Positions 2,732 to 48,822 of a DNA stretch of 59,738 bases are shown in pieces. The notes below the pieces were generated by a model that was not told the DNA's origin, did no database searches, and saw nothing but the letters and a program-made list of their open reading frames with translations. The position numbers and the translations under genes were made by a program. The stretch is from Pseudomonadota bacterium (GTDB lineage: Bacteria > Pseudomonadota > Gammaproteobacteria > Burkholderiales > Burkholderiaceae_C), in contig JBDKLR010000035.1 in the NCBI GenBank assembly GCA_039795515.1, positions 1-59,738 on the forward strand, read 5' to 3'. Each line of letters opens with the position of its first letter. Positions within the stretch are counted from its first letter, which is position 1.

Positions 2732-3751
<1,020 letters not shown>

Positions 3752-40518: not shown

Positions 40519-41288
40519 GCGCACAAGTGCTTTTGCAAGCCCAGGGTTTGAACAAGCGTTTTGGCGCGGTGGTGGCCGCGCAAGACTTGCAGGTGAACAT
40601 CCGCGCGGGCGAGCGCATCAGCTTGATCGGCAGCAATGGTGCGGGCAAAACCACCTTCGTCAACATGATCACCGGCTATATCAAACCGGATGAAGGCCAG
40701 ATTCGCTTGGACGGCCAGGACATCACGGCCTTGAACCCGCGCGAGATCACCCGCTTGGGCGTGGCGCGCTCGTTTCAAATCCCGCAGCTCTACCCCAGCT
40801 TGAGCGTGCTGGACAACATGCTGGTGGCGCAAACCATCCACACCCAGCGCTTGTCTTGGTGGCGGCCTTCCAACAGCCCTGATGCGGTGCAACGCGCGCA
40901 AGACCTGTTGGCGCGTTTTCGCTTGCGCGAGCATCAGCACCGATTGGTTGCCGAGCTGCCCGGTGGTTTGCGCAAACTGGTCGACATTGCTTTGGCCATG
41001 ATGGGCTCGCCCAAGCTGTTGCTGCTCGATGAACCGACCAGCGGTGTGGCGGCAGAAGAAAAATTTCCGATGATGGACACGGTCATGCAAGCGCTGAACG
41101 ACCAACCGCTGACGGTCTTGTTTGTCGAGCACGACATGGACATCGTCAGCCGTTATTGCGACCGGGTGATCGCGTTTTACAGCGGCCGCATCATCGCCGA
41201 CGATGTGCCCTCTGTCGCCTTGTCCAACGCCGATGTGCGTCGCTATGTCACCGGCGAGCGCGACCCGCAGGAGGCCCCCCATGCTTGA
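40515..41288 (+). CDS. LivG-like ABC ATPase
   Basis: GSNGAGKT, RSFQ, LLLDEP, VEHDMD. Confidence 0.9.
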   Translation: MSAQVLLQAQGLNKRFGAVVAAQDLQVNIRAGERISLIGSNGAGKTTFVNMITGYIKPDEGQIRLDGQDITALNPREITRLGVARSFQIPQLYPSLSVLDNMLVAQTIHTQRLSWWRPSNSPDAVQRAQDLLARFRLREHQHRLVAELPGGLRKLVDIALAMMGSPKLLLLDEPTSGVAAEEKFPMMDTVMQALNDQPLTVLFVEHDMDIVSRYCDRVIAFYSGRIIADDVPSVALSNADVRRYVTGERDPQEAPHA

Positions 41289-41922
41289 GCTCGACGACTT
41301 GCATGTGGACATCGCCTCGGCGCAGGTGTTGCGCGGTTTTTCCATGCGTGTCGCGCAAGGCCACATGGTCGGCCTGGTGGGGCGCAATGGCGCAGGCAAA
41401 ACCAGCACCATGCGCAGCATCATGGGGCACTTGCCTCTGCGCCAAGGGCGGTTGCGTTGGAACGGCCAAGACCTCGCCAACTTGCCGCCCGAAGCGCGTG
41501 CTGGATGGGGTGTGGGCTACATGCCGGAAGACCGGGGTTTGGTGCCCGAACTCACGGTCGAAGAAAACATCTGCATCCCGCTGTGGGTCAGCAAAACCTT
41601 GCACGCACCCGACCGATTGGCTTTTGTGTACCAAGTCCTGCCTGAGTTGAAAGACATGGCGCAACGACGCGCCTTGTTGCTTTCGGGCGGACAGCAAAAA
41701 CTGGTGGCCTTGGGCCGGGCCTTGGCGGTGGGCACCAAGCTGTTGCTGTTGGACGAACCGTTTGAAGGGGTCGCACCCGCCTTGTCGATGCGCATTTCCG
41801 AGGTGTTGCACCAACTCAAGGGTGCCGATTTGTCGGTGCTGATTTCGCAGTCGGACTTGAACCATTCCAGTGGTTTGCTTGACAGCACCGTGGTGATTGA
41901 GCGCGGTGCCAATGTGGCTTGA
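41281..41922 (+). CDS. LivF-like ABC ATPase (short)
   Basis: GRNGAGKT, PEDR, LSGGQQ, LLLDEP. Confidence 0.9.
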   Translation: MLELDDLHVDIASAQVLRGFSMRVAQGHMVGLVGRNGAGKTSTMRSIMGHLPLRQGRLRWNGQDLANLPPEARAGWGVGYMPEDRGLVPELTVEENICIPLWVSKTLHAPDRLAFVYQVLPELKDMAQRRALLLSGGQQKLVALGRALAVGTKLLLLDEPFEGVAPALSMRISEVLHQLKGADLSVLISQSDLNHSSGLLDSTVVIERGANVA

Positions 41923-42054
41923 TTGAAAACACCAACGGTCAATGCTTGCTGTGCTCGCGCAAGACAGACACGATGGGTCGAATGCATAGCGAACGTCGCA
42001 GCTTTGCTGCGGTGAGCGGCATTCGATTCATCGGGGCTGGCCAGGCCTGAAAGA
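41915..42054 (-). repeat. Dispersed structured element, copy 1
   Basis: 41987-42020 is the exact reverse complement of 48698-48731, and 42042-42054 of 48650-48662. The core is enclosed by a 15-bp stem (41971-41985 / 42019-42033). Confidence 0.85.
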
Positions 42055-42097
42055 AGGGCTTGCTGGCCTCACGGCATGCAACCCGCACGGCACTTGG

Positions 42098-43525
42098 TCA
42101 GTACAAAAACACCTTGCCCGGATTCATGATGTTGTGCGGGTCCAAAGCATGTTTGATGGCGCGCATCATGTGGACCGCGCCGGCGCCTGCCTCGTTCACC
42201 AAGAAATCCATTTTGTGCAGACCGATGCCGTGCTCTCCTGTGCAAGTGCCTTCCAGCGCCAAAGCACGGGCCACCAGTTTGTCGTTCAGCGCTTCAGCCG
42301 TGGCGCGTTCTTGCGCGTTGTCGGGGTCGATCAAATAACCAAAGTGGAAATTGCCATCGCCCACATGGCCGACCAAGAAATACGGGATGCCCGAGGCATC
42401 CACCTCGGCCACCGAGTCGAGCAAGCAGTCGGCCAAGCGTGAAATCGGCACACAGGTGTCGGTGCTGATGGCGCGGCAACCGGGGCGGCTTTGAATGCCG
42501 GCAAAGTAAGTGTTGTGCCTGGCGGTCCACAAACGGGTGCGCTCCTCGGGCGTGGTCGCCCATTCAAACGCATGGCCTTCAAATTCGCTGGCGATCTCTT
42601 GCACGGTTTCGGCCTGCTCTTTCACGCTGGCCGGCGAACCGTGGAACTCCATCAGCAGCATCGGTTGCACCGGCAAACTGAGCTTGGAATACTGGTTCAC
42701 CATGCGCACTGCGTTGGCGTCGATCAACTCGACCCGCGCAATCGGGATGCCCATTTGGATGATTTGGATCGTGGTGCGCACCGCCGCTTCGATGCTGGGG
42801 AACGAGCAAGTGGCGGCCGACACCGCTTCGGGCAGGGGATACAGCTTCAAGGTGATTTCGGTGATCACACCCAAGGTCCCTTCGCTGCCCACCATCAAGC
42901 GGGTCAGGTCGTAGCCTGCAGAGGACTTGCGGGCCCGGGTGCCGGTGCGAATCACCTCGCCGCTGGCGGTGACCACTTCCAAGCCCAACACGTTTTCGCG
43001 CATGGTGCCGTAGCGCACGGCGTTGGTGCCGCTGGCGCGGGTCGCGCTCATGCCACCAATCGAAGCGTCTGCGCCTGGGTCGATCGGGAAAAACAAACCG
43101 GTGCTTTTGATTTCTTCGTTGAGTTGTTTGCGCGTGACCCCGGCTTGCACCGTCACGGTCAGGTCCTCGGCATGAACCGACAAGACCTTGTTCATGCGGC
43201 CCAAGTCGATGCTGATGCCGCCTTGCACCGCCAGCAAATGACCTTCCAGCGAGGAACCGACACCGAACGGGATGACCGGGACCTGGTGCGCCGCCGCCAA
43301 GGACACGGCTTGGGCCACATCGTCGGTGGACTCGGCGAACACCACGGCTGCCGGTGGTGGCACGGTGGTGTAGGCCGACTCGTCGCGGCCATGCTGTTCG
43401 CGCACCACCATGGCGGTGGAGCAGCGTTCGCCGAAATGTGCTTTCAAGGCATCCAGCAGGGCTTGCGGCACCTCGCGTTGTTGGACGACGGGCATCAGAT
43501 GTTGGGCGGTGCTGGGTGCGTTCAT
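42098..43525 (-). CDS. FAD-linked oxidase, D-lactate dehydrogenase/GlcD family
   Basis: GSSLEGH, DPGADASIGG, GSEGTLG, GHVGDGNFH, GEHGIG, MNPGK. Confidence 0.9.
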   Translation of the reverse strand: MNAPSTAQHLMPVVQQREVPQALLDALKAHFGERCSTAMVVREQHGRDESAYTTVPPPAAVVFAESTDDVAQAVSLAAAHQVPVIPFGVGSSLEGHLLAVQGGISIDLGRMNKVLSVHAEDLTVTVQAGVTRKQLNEEIKSTGLFFPIDPGADASIGGMSATRASGTNAVRYGTMRENVLGLEVVTASGEVIRTGTRARKSSAGYDLTRLMVGSEGTLGVITEITLKLYPLPEAVSAATCSFPSIEAAVRTTIQIIQMGIPIARVELIDANAVRMVNQYSKLSLPVQPMLLMEFHGSPASVKEQAETVQEIASEFEGHAFEWATTPEERTRLWTARHNTYFAGIQSRPGCRAISTDTCVPISRLADCLLDSVAEVDASGIPYFLVGHVGDGNFHFGYLIDPDNAQERATAEALNDKLVARALALEGTCTGEHGIGLHKMDFLVNEAGAGAVHMMRAIKHALDPHNIMNPGKVFLY

Positions 43526-43595
43526 GGCAGGCTCCTGTAGAGCACCCATTCTAGGAAGAAACACCCCTTCAAGGGTGTCGCACACGAGCGTGGAT

Positions 43596-44297
43596 TCAGG
43601 GCTGCAGTTCGATTTGCGCCTGCATGCCCAAGCGCACCGTGGTTTTGCCGCTTTCATGTGGAATCGGGATGGGCGCGGCATCCGCCATGGGGCTTTTGGC
43701 CATCAGGGCCATGGGCTGGGGGTCGGTCACATCTGGCGTCGGCGAAAACACGAGCGACTGGATGCGGTAGTTGGCAAAACCAAAAGCCTGTGCGATCTGG
43801 CTGGCCTTGTTTTTGAAGTTGAGCGCCAGTTCTTGCACCAGGTTTTTTTCGGTTTGCTGTCGCAGGGGGTCGGAGAGGCGAAATTGCACGCTTTGAATGC
43901 GCATCACACGGGTCAGCTCGGAGGTCAACTGGGCCAGCGCCGCGGTGTTGGTGGACAACAAAACCAGTTCGGCCTGCGCGCGCCATGGGGTGGTCTTGCC
44001 TTTGGGGTCCCAAATGGGTGATGTGTGAACCTGGCCGATTTGCAGCATCACGCCTGGGACTTGGCGCGCTTGTGCCACGGCTGTTTGCAGCTGAGCCAAC
44101 ACGCTTTGGGTGATGTCGTGGGAGTTGCGGCCCTCGCGCGACACCACCATGCTGACCAACAGTTCGTCGTTGTCCACGGTGGCGCTGGCTTGCGCGTCGA
44201 GTTGGGCTTTGGCCGGGGTGTCGGGGATGGGCTTGGTTTGGGCCAGGGCCACGGTGGCTTGGCAGACCAGCAGCCAGGCCAGCAAAATTGTTTTCAT
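43596..44297 (-). CDS. SIMPL (DUF541) domain periplasmic protein
   Basis: Signal peptide (ALA), DELLVSM, FKNKASQIAQAFG, ESGKTTV pattern. Confidence 0.75.
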   Translation of the reverse strand: MKTILLAWLLVCQATVALAQTKPIPDTPAKAQLDAQASATVDNDELLVSMVVSREGRNSHDITQSVLAQLQTAVAQARQVPGVMLQIGQVHTSPIWDPKGKTTPWRAQAELVLLSTNTAALAQLTSELTRVMRIQSVQFRLSDPLRQQTEKNLVQELALNFKNKASQIAQAFGFANYRIQSLVFSPTPDVTDPQPMALMAKSPMADAAPIPIPHESGKTTVRLGMQAQIELQP

Positions 44298-44482
44298 GTC
44301 AGGTGTCTCGTGTTGAAAAGAACACTTAACGTGCCAGCATGAAACTCGGTGAGCCCAGCGCCACAACTTGAACAAAGGCTCGCATTTGCATGTTGTCCTC
44401 GCGCGCGCCAAGGGGTTGTGGGCCGGGGTGTCCTGCTTGGCCTGTGGCCTGAGACAATGCGCCGCTAAAGAGGAATCACCAG

Positions 44483-45040
44483 ATGGGCAACCGACTCACA
44501 CAAATCGCCACCCGCACCGGCGACGATGGCACCACCGGCTTGGGCGACAACCGCCGTGTCAGCAAAAACAGTTTGCGCGTGCACGCCATGGGCGAGGTGG
44601 ACGAGCTCAACTCCCACATCGGCGTGTTGCTCTGCGAGGACATGCCCAACGACGTGCGCGAGCTGCTGGTGGAGGTGCAACACCAGTTGTTCAATTTGGG
44701 CGGTGAACTCAGCATCCCTGGTTTTGAGTTGCTCAAGGCCGAGGCGGTGCTGGCCTTGGACCATGCTTTGGCCGATCACAACGAGGCACTGCCCAAGTTG
44801 CAAGAATTCATCTTGCCGGCGGGCACGCGTGGCGCGTCATTGGCCCATGTGTGTCGCACCGTGGCGCGTCGCGCCGAGCGCGCCGTGGTGGCTTTGGGTG
44901 CGGAAGAAGCCTTGAACGACACGCCTCGCCAATACCTCAACCGCTTGTCCGACCTGATGTTTGTGCTCGCGCGCGTGCTCAATCGCATGAATGGCGGCGA
45001 TGACGTGTATTGGAAAAGCCAGCGCATGAGCGCTGGTTGA
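44483..45040 (+). CDS. ATP:cob(I)alamin adenosyltransferase, PduO type
   Basis: TRTGDDGTT, GEVDELNS, FILP, RRAER, YLNRLSD. Confidence 0.93.
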   Translation: MGNRLTQIATRTGDDGTTGLGDNRRVSKNSLRVHAMGEVDELNSHIGVLLCEDMPNDVRELLVEVQHQLFNLGGELSIPGFELLKAEAVLALDHALADHNEALPKLQEFILPAGTRGASLAHVCRTVARRAERAVVALGAEEALNDTPRQYLNRLSDLMFVLARVLNRMNGGDDVYWKSQRMSAG

Positions 45041-45090
45041 AACAGACGCCAGCGCATGAGCGCTGGTTGAACAAGACCCCAGCGCTGGCC
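45018..45090. repeat. Tandem palindromic repeat, 30-bp period
   Basis: GCCAGCGCATGAGCGCTGGTTGAA at 45018 and 45048, then a collapsed CCAGCGCTGG at 45079. Confidence 0.9.
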
Positions 45091-45411
45091 TTATTTCTTC
45101 ATGCCCAATATCCAATCCACCAGCATGTTGATTTCTGCTTGGCTCAGGTTCAAGAAGGCGGGCATGATGCTGCGGCCACCGCCAGCCCAAACGCCTTTGC
45201 CACCGTTGCGGATTTTGTCAGCCAGGTAGGATTTGGCCTCAGGGTCGCCGTGGTATTTCTCGGCGATCTTTTCGTATGAAGGCACCGACATGGTGTGCTG
45301 ATCGATGCTGTGGCAACCCAGACAGGCTTTCTCTTTGGCCAAACTCGCGGCATCTTGTTGGGCCATGGCCCACAACGGCAAGCAGCACAACAACAGAGCG
45401 ATACGTTTCAT
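45091..45411 (-). CDS. Class I c-type cytochrome (c551/c552-like)
   Basis: Signal peptide (AMA), CLGCH, GGKGVW...MP. Confidence 0.92.
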   Translation of the reverse strand: MKRIALLLCCLPLWAMAQQDAASLAKEKACLGCHSIDQHTMSVPSYEKIAEKYHGDPEAKSYLADKIRNGGKGVWAGGGRSIMPAFLNLSQAEINMLVDWILGMKK

Positions 45412-45481
45412 GAACAGGTCCCGAGAAAATGACAAATTCTAGGGAGCGATCAATGCCATGGCATGCGCAAGGGTCTTGCGT

Positions 45482-46054
45482 TCAGGGGTTGGTGCCCAGC
45501 AAACGCAGGCGAAATGCCGGGTCCGAGGTGCGCGCAGACAGCCAGATGCCAAAAAACAATTGGGCAAATTCAGCATCGGCAATCTCGCCCCGAGGTTGTC
45601 CGTTGTGCCAAAACACCGCGGCCTCACCGGGTCGCTGCAAGCCCAGCAAGCGGTCGCCTTTGCGCACTTTCGGGAAGACGCGCAGCATTTGCGCCATCCA
45701 AGCCTGTTCTTGGGCGGGGCTCACGGTGGCGATGCGGCGCATCTCCTGGATTGAGCGTTGCGCAATGTCTTTGGCCTCGAAGTTGCGCAAGTAATGAAGT
45801 TCCAAGGCCAGCACGTGTTCGTGTGCGGCTTGGGCTTGGAACGTTGGCATGGTCCACAAGGTGGCGTCGTACACGTCAAAGCCAAAGTAAGTGAAACGCG
45901 CCGTGCTGCGCCACGCCAAATCCGGGGTCGCCAACTCGGCCGGCACCGGCTGCGGCGCGGGTTTCTGTGCAACCGACACAGACGGCCATGTCAGGTGGAC
46001 CATCAGCAGGCCCAGCGCCACGCATCGGGTGAGGGCGTACAGGGCTTGGCGCAT
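45482..46054 (-). CDS. Chalcone-isomerase-like family protein
   Basis: FGFDVYDATLW, LELHYLR, FPKVRKGD, FFGIWL, LRLLG. Confidence 0.78.
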   Translation of the reverse strand: MRQALYALTRCVALGLLMVHLTWPSVSVAQKPAPQPVPAELATPDLAWRSTARFTYFGFDVYDATLWTMPTFQAQAAHEHVLALELHYLRNFEAKDIAQRSIQEMRRIATVSPAQEQAWMAQMLRVFPKVRKGDRLLGLQRPGEAAVFWHNGQPRGEIADAEFAQLFFGIWLSARTSDPAFRLRLLGTNP

Positions 46055-46056
46055 CG

Positions 46057-46482
46057 TCAACGGGGTGACAACACCGACATGGTGATGCGCGAGATGCAAC
46101 TCAAACGGCCTTGGTCGTCAAACATCTCAATGCCCCAGACCTGGGTGCTGCGTCCGATGTGAATGGGTCGGGTGATGCCGTTGACCCAACCCTCGGCCAC
46201 GCCGCGGATGTGGTTGGCGTTGATGTCCAAACCCACTGCGCGGTGATCGGGCGGGCACGAGTAGAAAGCGCCGCATGAGCCCAATGTTTCGGCCAACACC
46301 ACGCTGGCACCGCCGTGGATCACACCATAGGGCTGGCGTGTGCGTTTGTCCACCGGCATGCGGCCACGGATGAAATCGGGGCCAACTTCGAGGAACTCCA
46401 TGCCCAAGCTTTCGCCGGCGGTGTTGTAGTGGCTCTCGGTGAGCAATTCAATGCTGATCGGTTTGGTCCAAATGGCGGCCAT
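46057..46482 (-). CDS. Hotdog-fold thioesterase (PaaI/MenI-like)
   Basis: QPYGVIHGGASVVLAETLGS, GLDINANH. Confidence 0.92.
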   Translation of the reverse strand: MAAIWTKPISIELLTESHYNTAGESLGMEFLEVGPDFIRGRMPVDKRTRQPYGVIHGGASVVLAETLGSCGAFYSCPPDHRAVGLDINANHIRGVAEGWVNGITRPIHIGRSTQVWGIEMFDDQGRLSCISRITMSVLSPR

Positions 46483-46567
46483 GGGCAGAAACAGTTGATA
46501 GACAAAACTGCATCTTAGGGGCAATGCCCAGTCGCGGCACCGGGGAAGACTGATAACCTCTGACGCC

Positions 46568-48649
46568 ATGAACGCTTCCCACACCCCAGCGCCTTTTGTG
46601 CCGCAAATGCGCCTGTACCAGCAATGGCTGGCCGAGCACCGTCAACTGCATTTCGACGATTACCCCGCCATGTGGCAATGGTCGGTGACGCATCTCGAGG
46701 ATTTTTGGCAATCGGTGTGGGACTACCTGGATTTGCAATCGCCCACCCCGCACAGCGTGGTGCTCGAGCGCAACGTCATGCCAGGTGCGCGTTGGTTTGT
46801 CGGTGCCCAAGTGAACTACGCCCACCAGGTGCTGCGGCATGTGGACGCCGCCCATGCGGCGGGCATGCCGGCCATCATCAGCAACAACGAACGCGGGCAA
46901 CGGCGCGAATTGTCTTGGCCCGAATTGAAGCGACAAGTGGGCGCGATGGCGCTGCATTTGCAAGCACAGGGCGTGCAACCCGGTGACCGGGTGGCGGCTT
47001 ACCTGCCCAATATTCCCGAAACCATGGTGGCGTTTTTGGCGGTCACCAGCATCGGTGGCATTTGGAGTGTGTGTGCGCCCGACATGGGCACCAACGCGGT
47101 GGTCGATCGTTTCAAGCAAATCACCCCCAAGGTGTTGATCGGTGTCGATGGCGTCACCTACGGCGGCAAAGACCTGGCGCGCTTGGGCGTGGTGAGCGAG
47201 TTGCGTGCGGCCTTGCCCAGCGTCGAGCATGTGGTGGTCTATCAAAACCTGGGTGGCATGGCGCCCCTGCCGGACAGCGCCGATTGGTCGCAGGTGGTGC
47301 AGCGCGACGACGCCCCAGTGCAGGCCTTCACCCCGCAGTGGTTGCCGTTCAACCACCCGTTGTGGATTGTGTATTCGAGTGGCACCACCGGCCTGCCCAA
47401 ACCGCTGGTGCACGACCATGGCGGCACCTTGGTCAACGGCATGGCGCACAAAAACCTGCATTACGACGTGGCCTGCAGCTACGAGCCCAATTCCTGGGGC
47501 GAGCGCTTCATTTGGTACAGCTCCACGGGTTGGGTGATGTGGAACGCGCAGCTGAGTGGTTTGCTCAGCGGCACCACCTGCGTGATTTACGACGGCAACC
47601 CTGGCGGCTCGAAAGAGCGGCCCGATTGGGGCGTGTTGTGGCGTTATGCCGCGCAAGAAAAAGTCACCTTCTTTGGCGGCGGCGCGGCTTTTTTCAGCAA
47701 CTGCATGAAAGCCGGTTTAGAACTCAAAACCATCGCGGGTTTGCACACCATCCGCGCCTTGGGGGCGACCGGCTCGCCCTTGAGCGCCGAGGTGCAGCAA
47801 TGGGGCACCGCCCAGTTCAACGCGGTCTACCAAGCGGCGGGTGTTGAGCGTCCCGAGATATGGTGGTGCAATATTTCAGGCGGCACCGATGCGGGTGCCT
47901 ATGTCGGCGGTTTGCGCGACCTGCCCATGGTGCCGGGCGAGATGCAATGCCGCATGCTGGGTGTGTCGGTGCATGCGTTCAATGAGCAAGGTCAACCGGT
48001 GATCGACGAAGTGGGTGAGTTGGTCGTGACCCAACCGCTGCCCTGCATGCCGCCCTTCTTTTGGGGCGACACCGACAACCAGCGCTACCTGGGCAGTTAT
48101 TTCGACACCTTCCCAGCGGGCTTGGGCCGCCGACCCGGTGGGGGCGATTTGCCAGCCGATGCCGGCGCGGTCTGGCGACACGGCGACTGGCTCAAGATCA
48201 CGCCCGAGGGGCGCGCCATCATTTATGGCCGCAGCGACGCCACCATCAACCGCCACGGTTTGCGCATGGGCACCAGCGAGTTGTACAGCGCGGTGGAAGC
48301 CCTGCCCGAGGTGCTGGACAGCATGGTGGTGGATTTGGAGTACCTCGGCAAAGACAGCTACATGCCGCTGTTTGTGGTGTTGCGCGAAGGCGTGGCGCTG
48401 GACGCGGTGTTGCGAGACCGTTTGAACGCCGCGATTCGCACCGCACTCAGTCCGCGCTTTGTGCCGGACGACATTTACCAAGTGGCTGAAATCCCGCGCA
48501 CCTTGTCGGGCAAAAAGCAGGAGTTGCCAATCAAAAAACTCATGCTTGGTCAGCCCTTGGAGAAGGTGTTGAACAAAGACGCCATGGCCAATCCGGGTTG
48601 TCTCGATTGGTATGTGGCCTTGGCGAAGCGACATTTGGCGGCGGCTTAG
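46568..48649 (+). CDS. Acetoacetate-CoA ligase
   Basis: YSSGTTGLPK, TGWVMWN, ISGGTD, WRHGD, GRSDATINRHGLRMG, SGKKQELP. Confidence 0.9.
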   Translation: MNASHTPAPFVPQMRLYQQWLAEHRQLHFDDYPAMWQWSVTHLEDFWQSVWDYLDLQSPTPHSVVLERNVMPGARWFVGAQVNYAHQVLRHVDAAHAAGMPAIISNNERGQRRELSWPELKRQVGAMALHLQAQGVQPGDRVAAYLPNIPETMVAFLAVTSIGGIWSVCAPDMGTNAVVDRFKQITPKVLIGVDGVTYGGKDLARLGVVSELRAALPSVEHVVVYQNLGGMAPLPDSADWSQVVQRDDAPVQAFTPQWLPFNHPLWIVYSSGTTGLPKPLVHDHGGTLVNGMAHKNLHYDVACSYEPNSWGERFIWYSSTGWVMWNAQLSGLLSGTTCVIYDGNPGGSKERPDWGVLWRYAAQEKVTFFGGGAAFFSNCMKAGLELKTIAGLHTIRALGATGSPLSAEVQQWGTAQFNAVYQAAGVERPEIWWCNISGGTDAGAYVGGLRDLPMVPGEMQCRMLGVSVHAFNEQGQPVIDEVGELVVTQPLPCMPPFFWGDTDNQRYLGSYFDTFPAGLGRRPGGGDLPADAGAVWRHGDWLKITPEGRAIIYGRSDATINRHGLRMGTSELYSAVEALPEVLDSMVVDLEYLGKDSYMPLFVVLREGVALDAVLRDRLNAAIRTALSPRFVPDDIYQVAEIPRTLSGKKQELPIKKLMLGQPLEKVLNKDAMANPGCLDWYVALAKRHLAAA

Positions 48650-48822
48650 TCTTTCAGGCCTGCCTCTTGAGTTTTGCCCGGCGCAGTGGGCTCGTCCGCC
48701 GCTCACCGCAGCAAAGCTGCGACGTTCGCTACGTGGTCAAGCCCACTGCGCCGGGCTGAACATGAGCTTGTCGCGCGAGGGCGCTGGGGCAGCTTGAAGC
48801 TGATTTTCGAAATCAAGCAACA
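48650..48822 (+). repeat. Dispersed structured element, copy 2
   Basis: Same 34-nt core and 13-nt end block as copy 1. The core is enclosed by a perfect 17-bp inverted repeat, 48676-48692 / 48740-48756. Confidence 0.85.

What the first reader, a model, noticed from the sequence alone, without database searches (positions are those of the whole stretch)
41915..48822. Dispersed element with an invariant 34-nt core on interchangeable stems (copies at 41915-42054 minus and 48650-48822 plus)
Seen: both copies read block A TCTTTCAGGCCTG, left arm, core GCCGCTCACCGCAGCAAAGCTGCGACGTTCGCTA (identical, containing hairpin CGCAGC-AAA-GCTGCG), right arm, block C GCGCGAG, about 25 nt, then block D TTTTC(GA)AATCAAGC. 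The arms share no sequence between copies but each pairs with itself (15 bp with 2 mismatches; 17 bp perfect plus extensions). Both copies fill the gap between convergent genes. No transposase or target duplication is visible. Inference: structure is conserved while stem sequence is replaced wholesale, as expected for a protein-recognised RNA or ssDNA element such as an unrecognised ncRNA family, a REP/REPIN-like HUH-mobilised unit, or a 3'-end processing signal. Wobble pairs do not clearly favour one strand. Best candidate for an undescribed system here.
Basis: partly seen in the sequence, partly recalled or inferred. Interest (0 to 1): 0.72.

Follow-up and report, generated by a model that had tools for sequence, protein, structure and literature searches.

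The report
Hairpin passenger inside REP-like doublets
These are two copies of an uncatalogued 80-base DNA hairpin that is scattered between genes of some freshwater bacteria, keeps a fixed tip on changeable stems, and sits inside two unrelated known repeat families, so it is likely a non-coding passenger spread by a single-stranded-DNA transposase rather than a new RNA.

Summary
The core and self-paired arms are real: G000 holds 18 full copies and 24 of 139 genus genomes match. I found no convincing hit in other genera or in Rfam. Relatives show empty sites and other repeats at window site 1. In 68 of 168 copies a TIRtron-type TIR or a CGTC-type REP lies just outside, always in one polarity. 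Window copies are decayed halves of inverted doublets: a ~98%-identical strain keeps the partner, lost in a 162-nt deletion. Blocks A, C and D are not family features. No transcript-strand bias (28 vs 26) argues against a cis-acting RNA. The only candidate mover found is a TIR-flanked Y1 transposase present in 115 of 139 genomes, so the link is unproven. Verdict: a new variant of REPIN/NIME-type mosaics, in which one structured module sits in two different outer repeats in neighbouring lineages. The scan noted similar architectures on other DNA, but not this sequence.

The parts
41963..42041 (+). Hairpin module, copy 1. The + strand is the folded strand. Surviving half of an inverted doublet.
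   Evidence: fold; 84.9 bits; partner present in L199
41987..42020 (-).
41920..41922 (+). Stop codon of the ABC ATPase gene, and the 3-nt repeat at which a 162-nt segment with the partner hairpin is missing relative to L199.
   Evidence: joint 'skips 162' in 3 of 4 runs
41930..41962 (-).
42042..42095 (-).
48676..48756 (-). Hairpin module, copy 2. The - strand is the folded strand.
   Evidence: (78.9 bits)
48698..48731 (+). 34-nt conserved core of copy 2
48776..48792 (+).
48650..48662 (+). It is 86 nt further from the hairpin in ~98%-identical L198 and L289, so it is not a fixed part of the unit.
41203..41922 (+). Flanking gene: ABC transporter ATP-binding protein (context)
   Evidence: PF00005
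42098..43681 (-). Flanking gene: FAD-linked oxidase (context)
   Evidence: PF01565, PF02913
46568..48649 (+). Flanking gene: AMP-binding acyl-CoA synthetase (context)
   Evidence: PF00501
48827..50407 (-). Flanking gene: phosphoglucose isomerase (context)
   Evidence: PF00342

Best explanation
The element is an ~80-nt non-coding hairpin that sits at gene ends, often as inverted doublets enclosed by TIR or CGTC-type repeats, and it is likely spread as a single-stranded-DNA passenger of those doublets by a Y1 (HUH) transposase, probably the TIR-flanked one beside gltB. Shown: dispersal, empty sites in relatives, one favoured folding strand, covarying arms, fixed polarity inside the outer repeats, and decay of the doublets in this genome's lineage. 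Inferred: (a) the outer repeats are the cut-and-paste handles; (b) the invariant internal-loop core is kept because a protein reads it or because it nucleates folding of the ssDNA intermediate; (c) arms change freely because only pairing is selected, helped by copying of one arm onto the other; (d) in G000 the handles have eroded, so these two copies are probably immobile remnants. My odds that the TIR-flanked Y1 protein is the actual mover are about 1 in 3, and lower for the CGTC-bounded doublets of this lineage.
For: Copy number and patchiness: 18 full copies in G000. 24 of 139 genus genomes match, and five hold 16-30. Empty sites: of 28 relatives with both flanking genes at site 1, 13 have at most 59 nt stop to stop, 2 have ~100 nt without repeats, 9 have CGTC repeats without this core, and 4 have this core in other numbers or orientations. 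Nesting: a TIR lies upstream in 39 and a CGTC tail in 29 of 168 copies, with 0 and 0 reversed, at narrow distances. Doublets: 10 of 18 G000 copies are in inverted pairs. Relatives at ~85% show intact outer repeats, several with both halves, at G000's sites. ssDNA signs: tip loops on the folded strand are mostly TTT, TT, TCC, TCT or GNA triloops (that these suit DNA hairpins is recalled knowledge). There is no transcript-strand bias. Enzyme: the Y1 gene passes NF047646 at 82.5 vs 80 bits. Its TIRs fit the TIRtron motif GGGGWSAS (PMC3733652, passages). In G177 a module lies between the TIRs directly upstream of it, and in G261 and G257 a CGTC repeat lies 25 nt from its TIR. Arm co-change: a paired A-T/G-C swap separates G000 from L289, and two changes perfect the palindrome at C15:585 relative to L201.
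Against: The Y1 gene is in 115 of 139 genomes, most without the element, so it does not explain the distribution. In G000 and G277 it has only its downstream TIR, yet G277 has 30 cores and 54 CGTC repeats. 100 of 168 copies have neither outer repeat by my strict patterns; in G000 only 1 of 18 has. TIR-rich G202, G002 and G290 have no core (30 of their TIR loci read), and CGTC-rich G257, G222, G261, G253 and G199 lack this exact core. No Ssn-size GIY-YIG gene was found for the CGTC type. The two deletions examined sit at 3-4 nt repeats and look like slippage, not enzyme excision. Most copies of the core inside mosaics come from related genomes, so counts are not independent.
Confidence: 0.55

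Rival explanations
1. The hairpin is the driver, not the passenger: an unrecognised ssDNA-processing protein reads the invariant internal-loop core, and TIR or CGTC repeats are only preferred insertion or assembly sites.
For: The module is shared by two neighbouring clades that differ in outer repeat: TIR in G177, G272 and G221; CGTC in G277 and L264, decayed in G000 (one locus; the joining branch has 81/74 support). The core stays near-invariant while outer repeats decay in G000. A G-C to T-A double change in the loop-closing pair is seen in 5 of 242 copies. Sister hairpins in other lineages share the GTA bulge and GA-rich loop; one of them scores 30-47 bits with my model.
Against: No candidate gene recurs beside copies among 394 neighbouring ORFs in 208 clusters (45 and 41 proteins scanned). 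In 5 genomes tested each, no IntI passes its cut-off, and there is no reverse transcriptase and no DUF559; IS110 is in 1 of 5. Polarity inside both outer repeats is strict, as for a fixed component.
Confidence: 0.2
2. It acts as RNA: a protein-bound hairpin in 3' regions that stabilises or processes mRNAs or sponges a regulator, like the TwoAYGGAY motif, with mobility secondary.
For: 49 of 113 classifiable copies lie between convergent genes, against 182 of 1170 gene pairs in G000. G·T pairs and purine-purine mismatches also suit RNA. TwoAYGGAY elements likewise form doublets beside REPs (bioRxiv 10.64898/2026.09.22.753630, passages).
Against: Between co-directional genes the transcript carries the folded strand in 28 cases and the other strand in 26. 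There is no Rfam match at gathering score in the window, nor a meaningful one at E≤1 in six loci. Tip loops are not GNRA or UNCG tetraloops. Many relatives lack anything at the site.
Confidence: 0.15
3. The hairpins are attC-like recombination sites that let small cassettes, mainly toxin-antitoxin pairs, be gained and lost.
For: One folded strand with purine-rich mismatches and a bulged G near arm position 9. TA pairs lie next to or between modules: 19 of 140 loci hit 11 TA toxin queries drawn from those same loci, which is circular.
Against: RYYYAAC and GTTRRRY boxes flank only 2 of 230 copies. No integron integrase passes its cut-off in 5 genomes. None of G000's 13 loci has a TA pair. Shared cassettes mostly recur at the same chromosomal site.
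Confidence: 0.08

Closest known systems
REPINs / REP doublets with RAYT (Bertels and Rainey 2011, PMC3116915, passages)
   Same: Intergenic inverted doublets, lineage-restricted blooms, structured spacer with compensatory changes, singlets as decayed remnants, one Y1 gene per genome.
   Different: Here the conserved part is the tip of an inner 80-nt hairpin with its own arms. Each half folds on its own. The GTAG (170 of 242 copies) is an internal bulge, not a foot tag. Outer repeats are TIR or CGTC type, not GTAG REPs.
NIMEs: dRS3 flanking RS elements in Neisseria (PMC1797815, passages)
   Same: CGTC-type outer repeats (dRS3 = CGTC-1 per PMC3733652) enclosing families of 50-150-nt fillers; arrays differ at syntenic sites.
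   Different: RS elements are described as lower-GC and possibly inert. This filler is GC-rich, covarying and strand-polar, and also sits inside TIR pairs. That paper saw no NIMEs outside Neisseria.
TIRtrons / TIRYT (PMC3733652, passages) = TnpA-Y1 subclass 2.1 (bioRxiv 10.1101/279083, passages)
   Same: GGGGWSAS inverted repeats flank the Y1 gene and form dispersed dimers; one type of doublet is bounded by them.
   Different: No structured passenger inside TIR dimers appears in the passages I read; TIR blooms occur without it.
Ssn nucleases with SRM/NTS repeats (PMC11893778, section 6 and passages)
   Same: The outer CGTC-type repeat has the same tagged hairpin plan.
   Different: 0 of 182 such repeats match the published SRM pattern; no Ssn-size gene found.
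TwoAYGGAY motif, Rfam RF01731 (bioRxiv 10.64898/2026.09.22.753630, passages)
   Same: Conserved structured tip, doublets about 250 bp apart, REP association, large copy-number swings.
   Different: No sequence or model match; single hairpin without AYGGAY loops.

Membership tests
GTAG-type REP | GT[AG]G 0-2 nt 5' of a fully paired basal stem of at least 7 bp, at the foot of the hairpin | tested here: not met
   GTAG is present in 170 of 242 copies but internal. A permissive version of the rule passes 36 of 230.
GTAG-type REP | Cognate RAYT gene flanked by the repeat | tested here: not met
   Of 5 Y1 loci from element-rich genomes, 1 has a module, nested between TIRs; all are TIR-associated.
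REPIN (works like) | Inverted doublets, intergenic, singlets derived from doublets | tested here: met
   10 of 18 G000 copies are paired. Partners are present in close strains at window site 1 and at C63, and in ~85% relatives at site 2 and C22.
REPIN (works like) | Excision or cleavage by the Y1 transposase | not testable with these tools
   Needs biochemistry or raw reads; only contigs were available.
NIME-type mosaic | CGTC-type inverted repeats enclosing a 50-150-nt filler | tested here: met
   (in relatives; decayed in G000, which has 0 intact repeats).
NIME-type mosaic | dRS3/NTS or SRM consensus | tested here: not met
   0 of 182 match the SRM pattern.
Ssn/SRM system | Small GIY-YIG gene flanked by the repeats | tested here: inconclusive
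   None among the 150 listed of 168 PF01541 matches in 139 genomes; 18 weak ones were not listed. G261 (99% complete, 78 repeats) has only a 648-aa frame. Pfam may miss divergent Ssn.
TIRtron | Y1 gene between GGGGWSAS inverted repeats | tested here: met
   Both sides in most relatives read; only the downstream TIR in G000 and G277. This concerns the candidate enzyme, not the module.
Integron attC / CALIN | RYYYAAC and GTTRRRY boxes at the stem base; IntI | tested here: not met
   2 of 230 copies; TIGR02249 cut-off passed in 0 of 5 genomes.
MITE | Conserved terminal inverted repeats and target-site duplication | tested here: not met
   Ends are the least conserved part. No common duplication was evident by eye at filled versus empty site 1. 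ISfinder was not available.
Rfam families incl. TwoAYGGAY | Covariance-model score at the gathering threshold | tested here: not met
   0 matches in the window; 2 irrelevant sub-threshold matches in 6 loci.

The most novel reading that the evidence does not exclude
The invariant internal loop is the binding site of an ssDNA-processing protein. It is the real replicating unit of a modular system that swaps its outer handles between TIR and CGTC repeats, rebuilds its stems by arm-to-arm copying, and helps capture toxin-antitoxin cassettes at gene ends. It would also give a handle on how CGTC repeats multiply in genomes with no Ssn nuclease.
Probability: 0.15. Interest if true: 0.75.

Novelty: new variant of a known kind. 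Interest (0 to 1): 0.42.

Why it matters
TIRtron proteins and CGTC repeats are described, but what moves them and what their inner fillers do is open. This family gives a compact test case: one covarying module in two unrelated outer repeats, with empty, intact and decayed alleles of the same sites in close relatives, and a single conserved candidate enzyme. It also shows that a conserved-core, variable-stem hairpin with strong covariation can look like an ncRNA and still behave as mobile DNA.

Tried and rejected
Fuzzy regex scan timed out. First relative search used a mis-written pattern and found nothing, even in G000; it was redone. A looser genus pattern was swamped by chance hits. No match in plasmids or phages. 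All 11 viral pattern hits lack the hairpin context and read as chance. Model searches of 150 order and 150 family genomes gave only single hits of 23-29 bits against 58-90 in G000 (only 27 candidates scored per genome); the five order hits were read and are not convincing, and the six family hits were not read. RNAalifold on the MAFFT alignment found only the 11 tip pairs because the arms misalign. The 19-pair structure I then named was derived from these sequences, so leans towards it. RNA runs were contigs only and cannot show strand, ends or level. One joint from 41922 to 48696 in run X15 has a 25-nt side and is more likely another allele than a rearrangement. An inversion of the 6.6 kb between the two copies was considered; the same flanking genes keep their order in relatives. 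A K-turn or hammerhead reading of the loop was dropped on inspection (recalled consensus, not tested by tool). No protein folding or complex job was run, as there was no partner protein to test.
Full report
Observation. The 34-nt core is identical at 41987-42020 (-) and 48698-48731 (+), with none expected by chance. The arms pair as described. Both copies lie between convergent housekeeping genes. The window gave no Rfam match. The genome G000 (1.47 Mb, 62.6% complete) holds 18 full copies and one half copy, all intergenic, 10 of them in inverted pairs 160-200 nt apart.

Distribution. A core pattern matches 24 of 139 genus genomes; G000, G177, G221, G272 and G277 hold 16-30, and the rest 1-6. 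One of 150 other family genomes matched the pattern, without the tip hairpin. Covariance models gave only weak single hits in 150 order and 150 family genomes. Titled records with true copies are freshwater Limnohabitans, Comamonadaceae or Burkholderiales bins, so the genus is probably Limnohabitans (inference). Plasmids, phages and viral contigs gave nothing real.

Structure. That strand is more stable in 57 of 59 as RNA and 59 of 59 as DNA. Own arms score 33.0 against 21.9 for foreign arms and rank first in 29 of 59. On 53 aligned copies a 19-pair structure is 93.8% paired, with double changes at 12 pairs, 0 of 500 shuffles as high, and slid controls at most 59.4%. That structure came from these sequences and the copies are related, so this is support, not a probability. 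The fold is a tip hairpin, a GA-rich internal loop, a GTA bulge, then about 22 bp of arm with purine-purine mismatches at recurring positions. GTAG is present in 170 of 242 copies but lies inside the stem. Tip loops are mostly TTT, TT, TCC, TCT, GAA or GCA. The 242 include redundant orthologues and at least one chance match (L217).

DNA or RNA. Of 113 classifiable contexts (62 more were not classifiable), 49 are convergent, 10 divergent and 54 co-directional; among the last, the transcript carries the folded strand in 28 and the other in 26. Convergent pairs are 182 of 1170 in G000. The element prefers gene ends but ignores transcript strand, which fits inserted DNA better than a cis-acting RNA. 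RNA runs were contigs and could not test expression.

History of the window sites. At site 1, of 28 relatives with both genes, 13 have at most 59 nt stop to stop, 2 have about 100 nt without repeats, 9 have CGTC-type repeats (most enclosing sister hairpins), and 4 have this core in other numbers or orientations. L199, 98% identical in both flanks, has 162 more bases holding an inverted partner; G000 lacks them at a 3-nt repeat on the ABC stop codon. The shorter allele appears in contigs of 3 of 4 runs. At site 2, L224 (85-88%) has a full doublet inside CGTC repeats, and 17 nt of its partner arm survive at 48776-48792. Decay is also seen at C22, C63 and C15. The window copies are therefore leftover halves. 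Block C of copy 2 and block D of copy 1 are remnants or junction products; block A sits where outer repeats stood, but its 13-nt identity between the two copies is not fully explained.

Outer repeats. In 168 copies with full flanks, a TIR lies upstream in 39 (mostly 44-49 nt away) and a CGTC-repeat tail in 29 (mostly 31-43 nt), never reversed. The TIR fits the TIRtron motif and the other fits the CGTC class (PMC3733652: parts 1-2 of 8 and passages; figures and supplements not seen). None of 182 CGTC-type repeats fits the Ssn SRM pattern (PMC11893778, section 6 and passages). A one-locus tree of 31 rows puts TIR-type carriers (G177, G272, G221) and CGTC-type carriers (G277, L264, G000, L199) in two well-supported clades joined with weak support, 81/74. 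Both outer repeats also bloom without this core. CGTC-rich genomes carry at least three sister hairpins in the same slot, one detected by my model at 30-47 bits.

Enzyme. G000 has one Y1 gene, upstream of gltB, above the NF047646 cut-off. TIR-associated Y1 proteins correspond to subclass 2.1 (bioRxiv 10.1101/279083, passages). In G177 a module sits between its upstream TIRs. In G261 and G257 a CGTC repeat adjoins its TIR. Against this, it is in 115 of 139 genomes and lacks the upstream TIR in G000 and G277. No Ssn-size GIY-YIG appeared among 150 listed matches. IntI, reverse transcriptase and DUF559 were absent in 5 of 5 genomes tested each, and IS110 was in 1 of 5. No enzyme recurs among 394 neighbouring ORFs. 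Small neighbours are often toxin-antitoxin pairs: 19 of 140 loci by a circular test, mostly at shared sites, and none at G000's own loci.

How stems change. Between 97-98% identical strains, site 2 shows a paired A-T/G-C swap, and C15:585 shows two changes that perfect the palindrome. This fits arm-to-arm copying or strong selection; two cases cannot separate them. Rare chimeras with mismatched arms exist (L129, L242) and may be recombinants or misassemblies.

Comparison and verdict. It works like the inner part of a REPIN or NIME (PMC3116915 and PMC1797815, passages) and parallels TwoAYGGAY doublets (bioRxiv 10.64898/2026.09.22.753630, passages). It fails membership as a GTAG REP, attC site, MITE, SRM or Rfam family. 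Eight literature searches returned no description of this family; subscription papers, figures, supplements and ISfinder were not covered. Earlier scan notes report the same architecture in other genomes but no look-alike of this sequence. New variant of a known kind; interest 0.42.

Noticed in passing
L345:1040-1260, L411:1520-1960, L385:395-701, L391:1985-2305: At least three sister hairpin families fill CGTC-bounded doublets in other lineages. They share a GTA or GCA bulge, 2-3 G-C pairs and a GA-rich loop on one strand, a motif also forming the tip loop of many CGTC repeats.
   Followed up: partly
G000:C47:9640-9720 and C56:340-420; L009:2570-2660: A second long hairpin with a GAAA tip often follows the module (its motif lies within 400 nt downstream in 56 of 168 copies); it folds on the opposite strand.
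   Followed up: partly
G261 (78 repeats), G257 (118), G222 (80): Large CGTC-repeat blooms in genomes where PF01541 finds only a UvrC-size protein; the mover of these repeats is unexplained.
   Followed up: partly
L001:1462-2221 (G000:C103): A TIR-associated Y1 transposase occurs in most of the genus, usually as one copy and next to gltB in the loci read; G000 and G277 have lost the upstream TIR.
   Followed up: partly
L009:1660-3330, L119:1255-1919, L120:322-1219, L124, L135: Toxin-antitoxin pairs (PIN/Phd, PIN/FitA, HepT/nucleotidyltransferase, PemK and others) bracketed by repeat mosaics; the HepT pair recurs after hisD with either TIR or CGTC mosaics.
   Followed up: partly
L221:1416-3030: A module lies just downstream of cas1-cas2 in a metagenome contig.
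   Followed up: no
G000:C117:2740-2810 and 3040-3130: Flanking segments of the doublet are tandemly duplicated and differ in copy number from L211.
   Followed up: no
L408:1380-1700 (G254): Small GIY-YIG-like ORF (weak Pfam hit) with no repeats evident in the 800 nt read.
   Followed up: no
window 31278: A lone TIR-like 9-mer elsewhere in the window.
   Followed up: no
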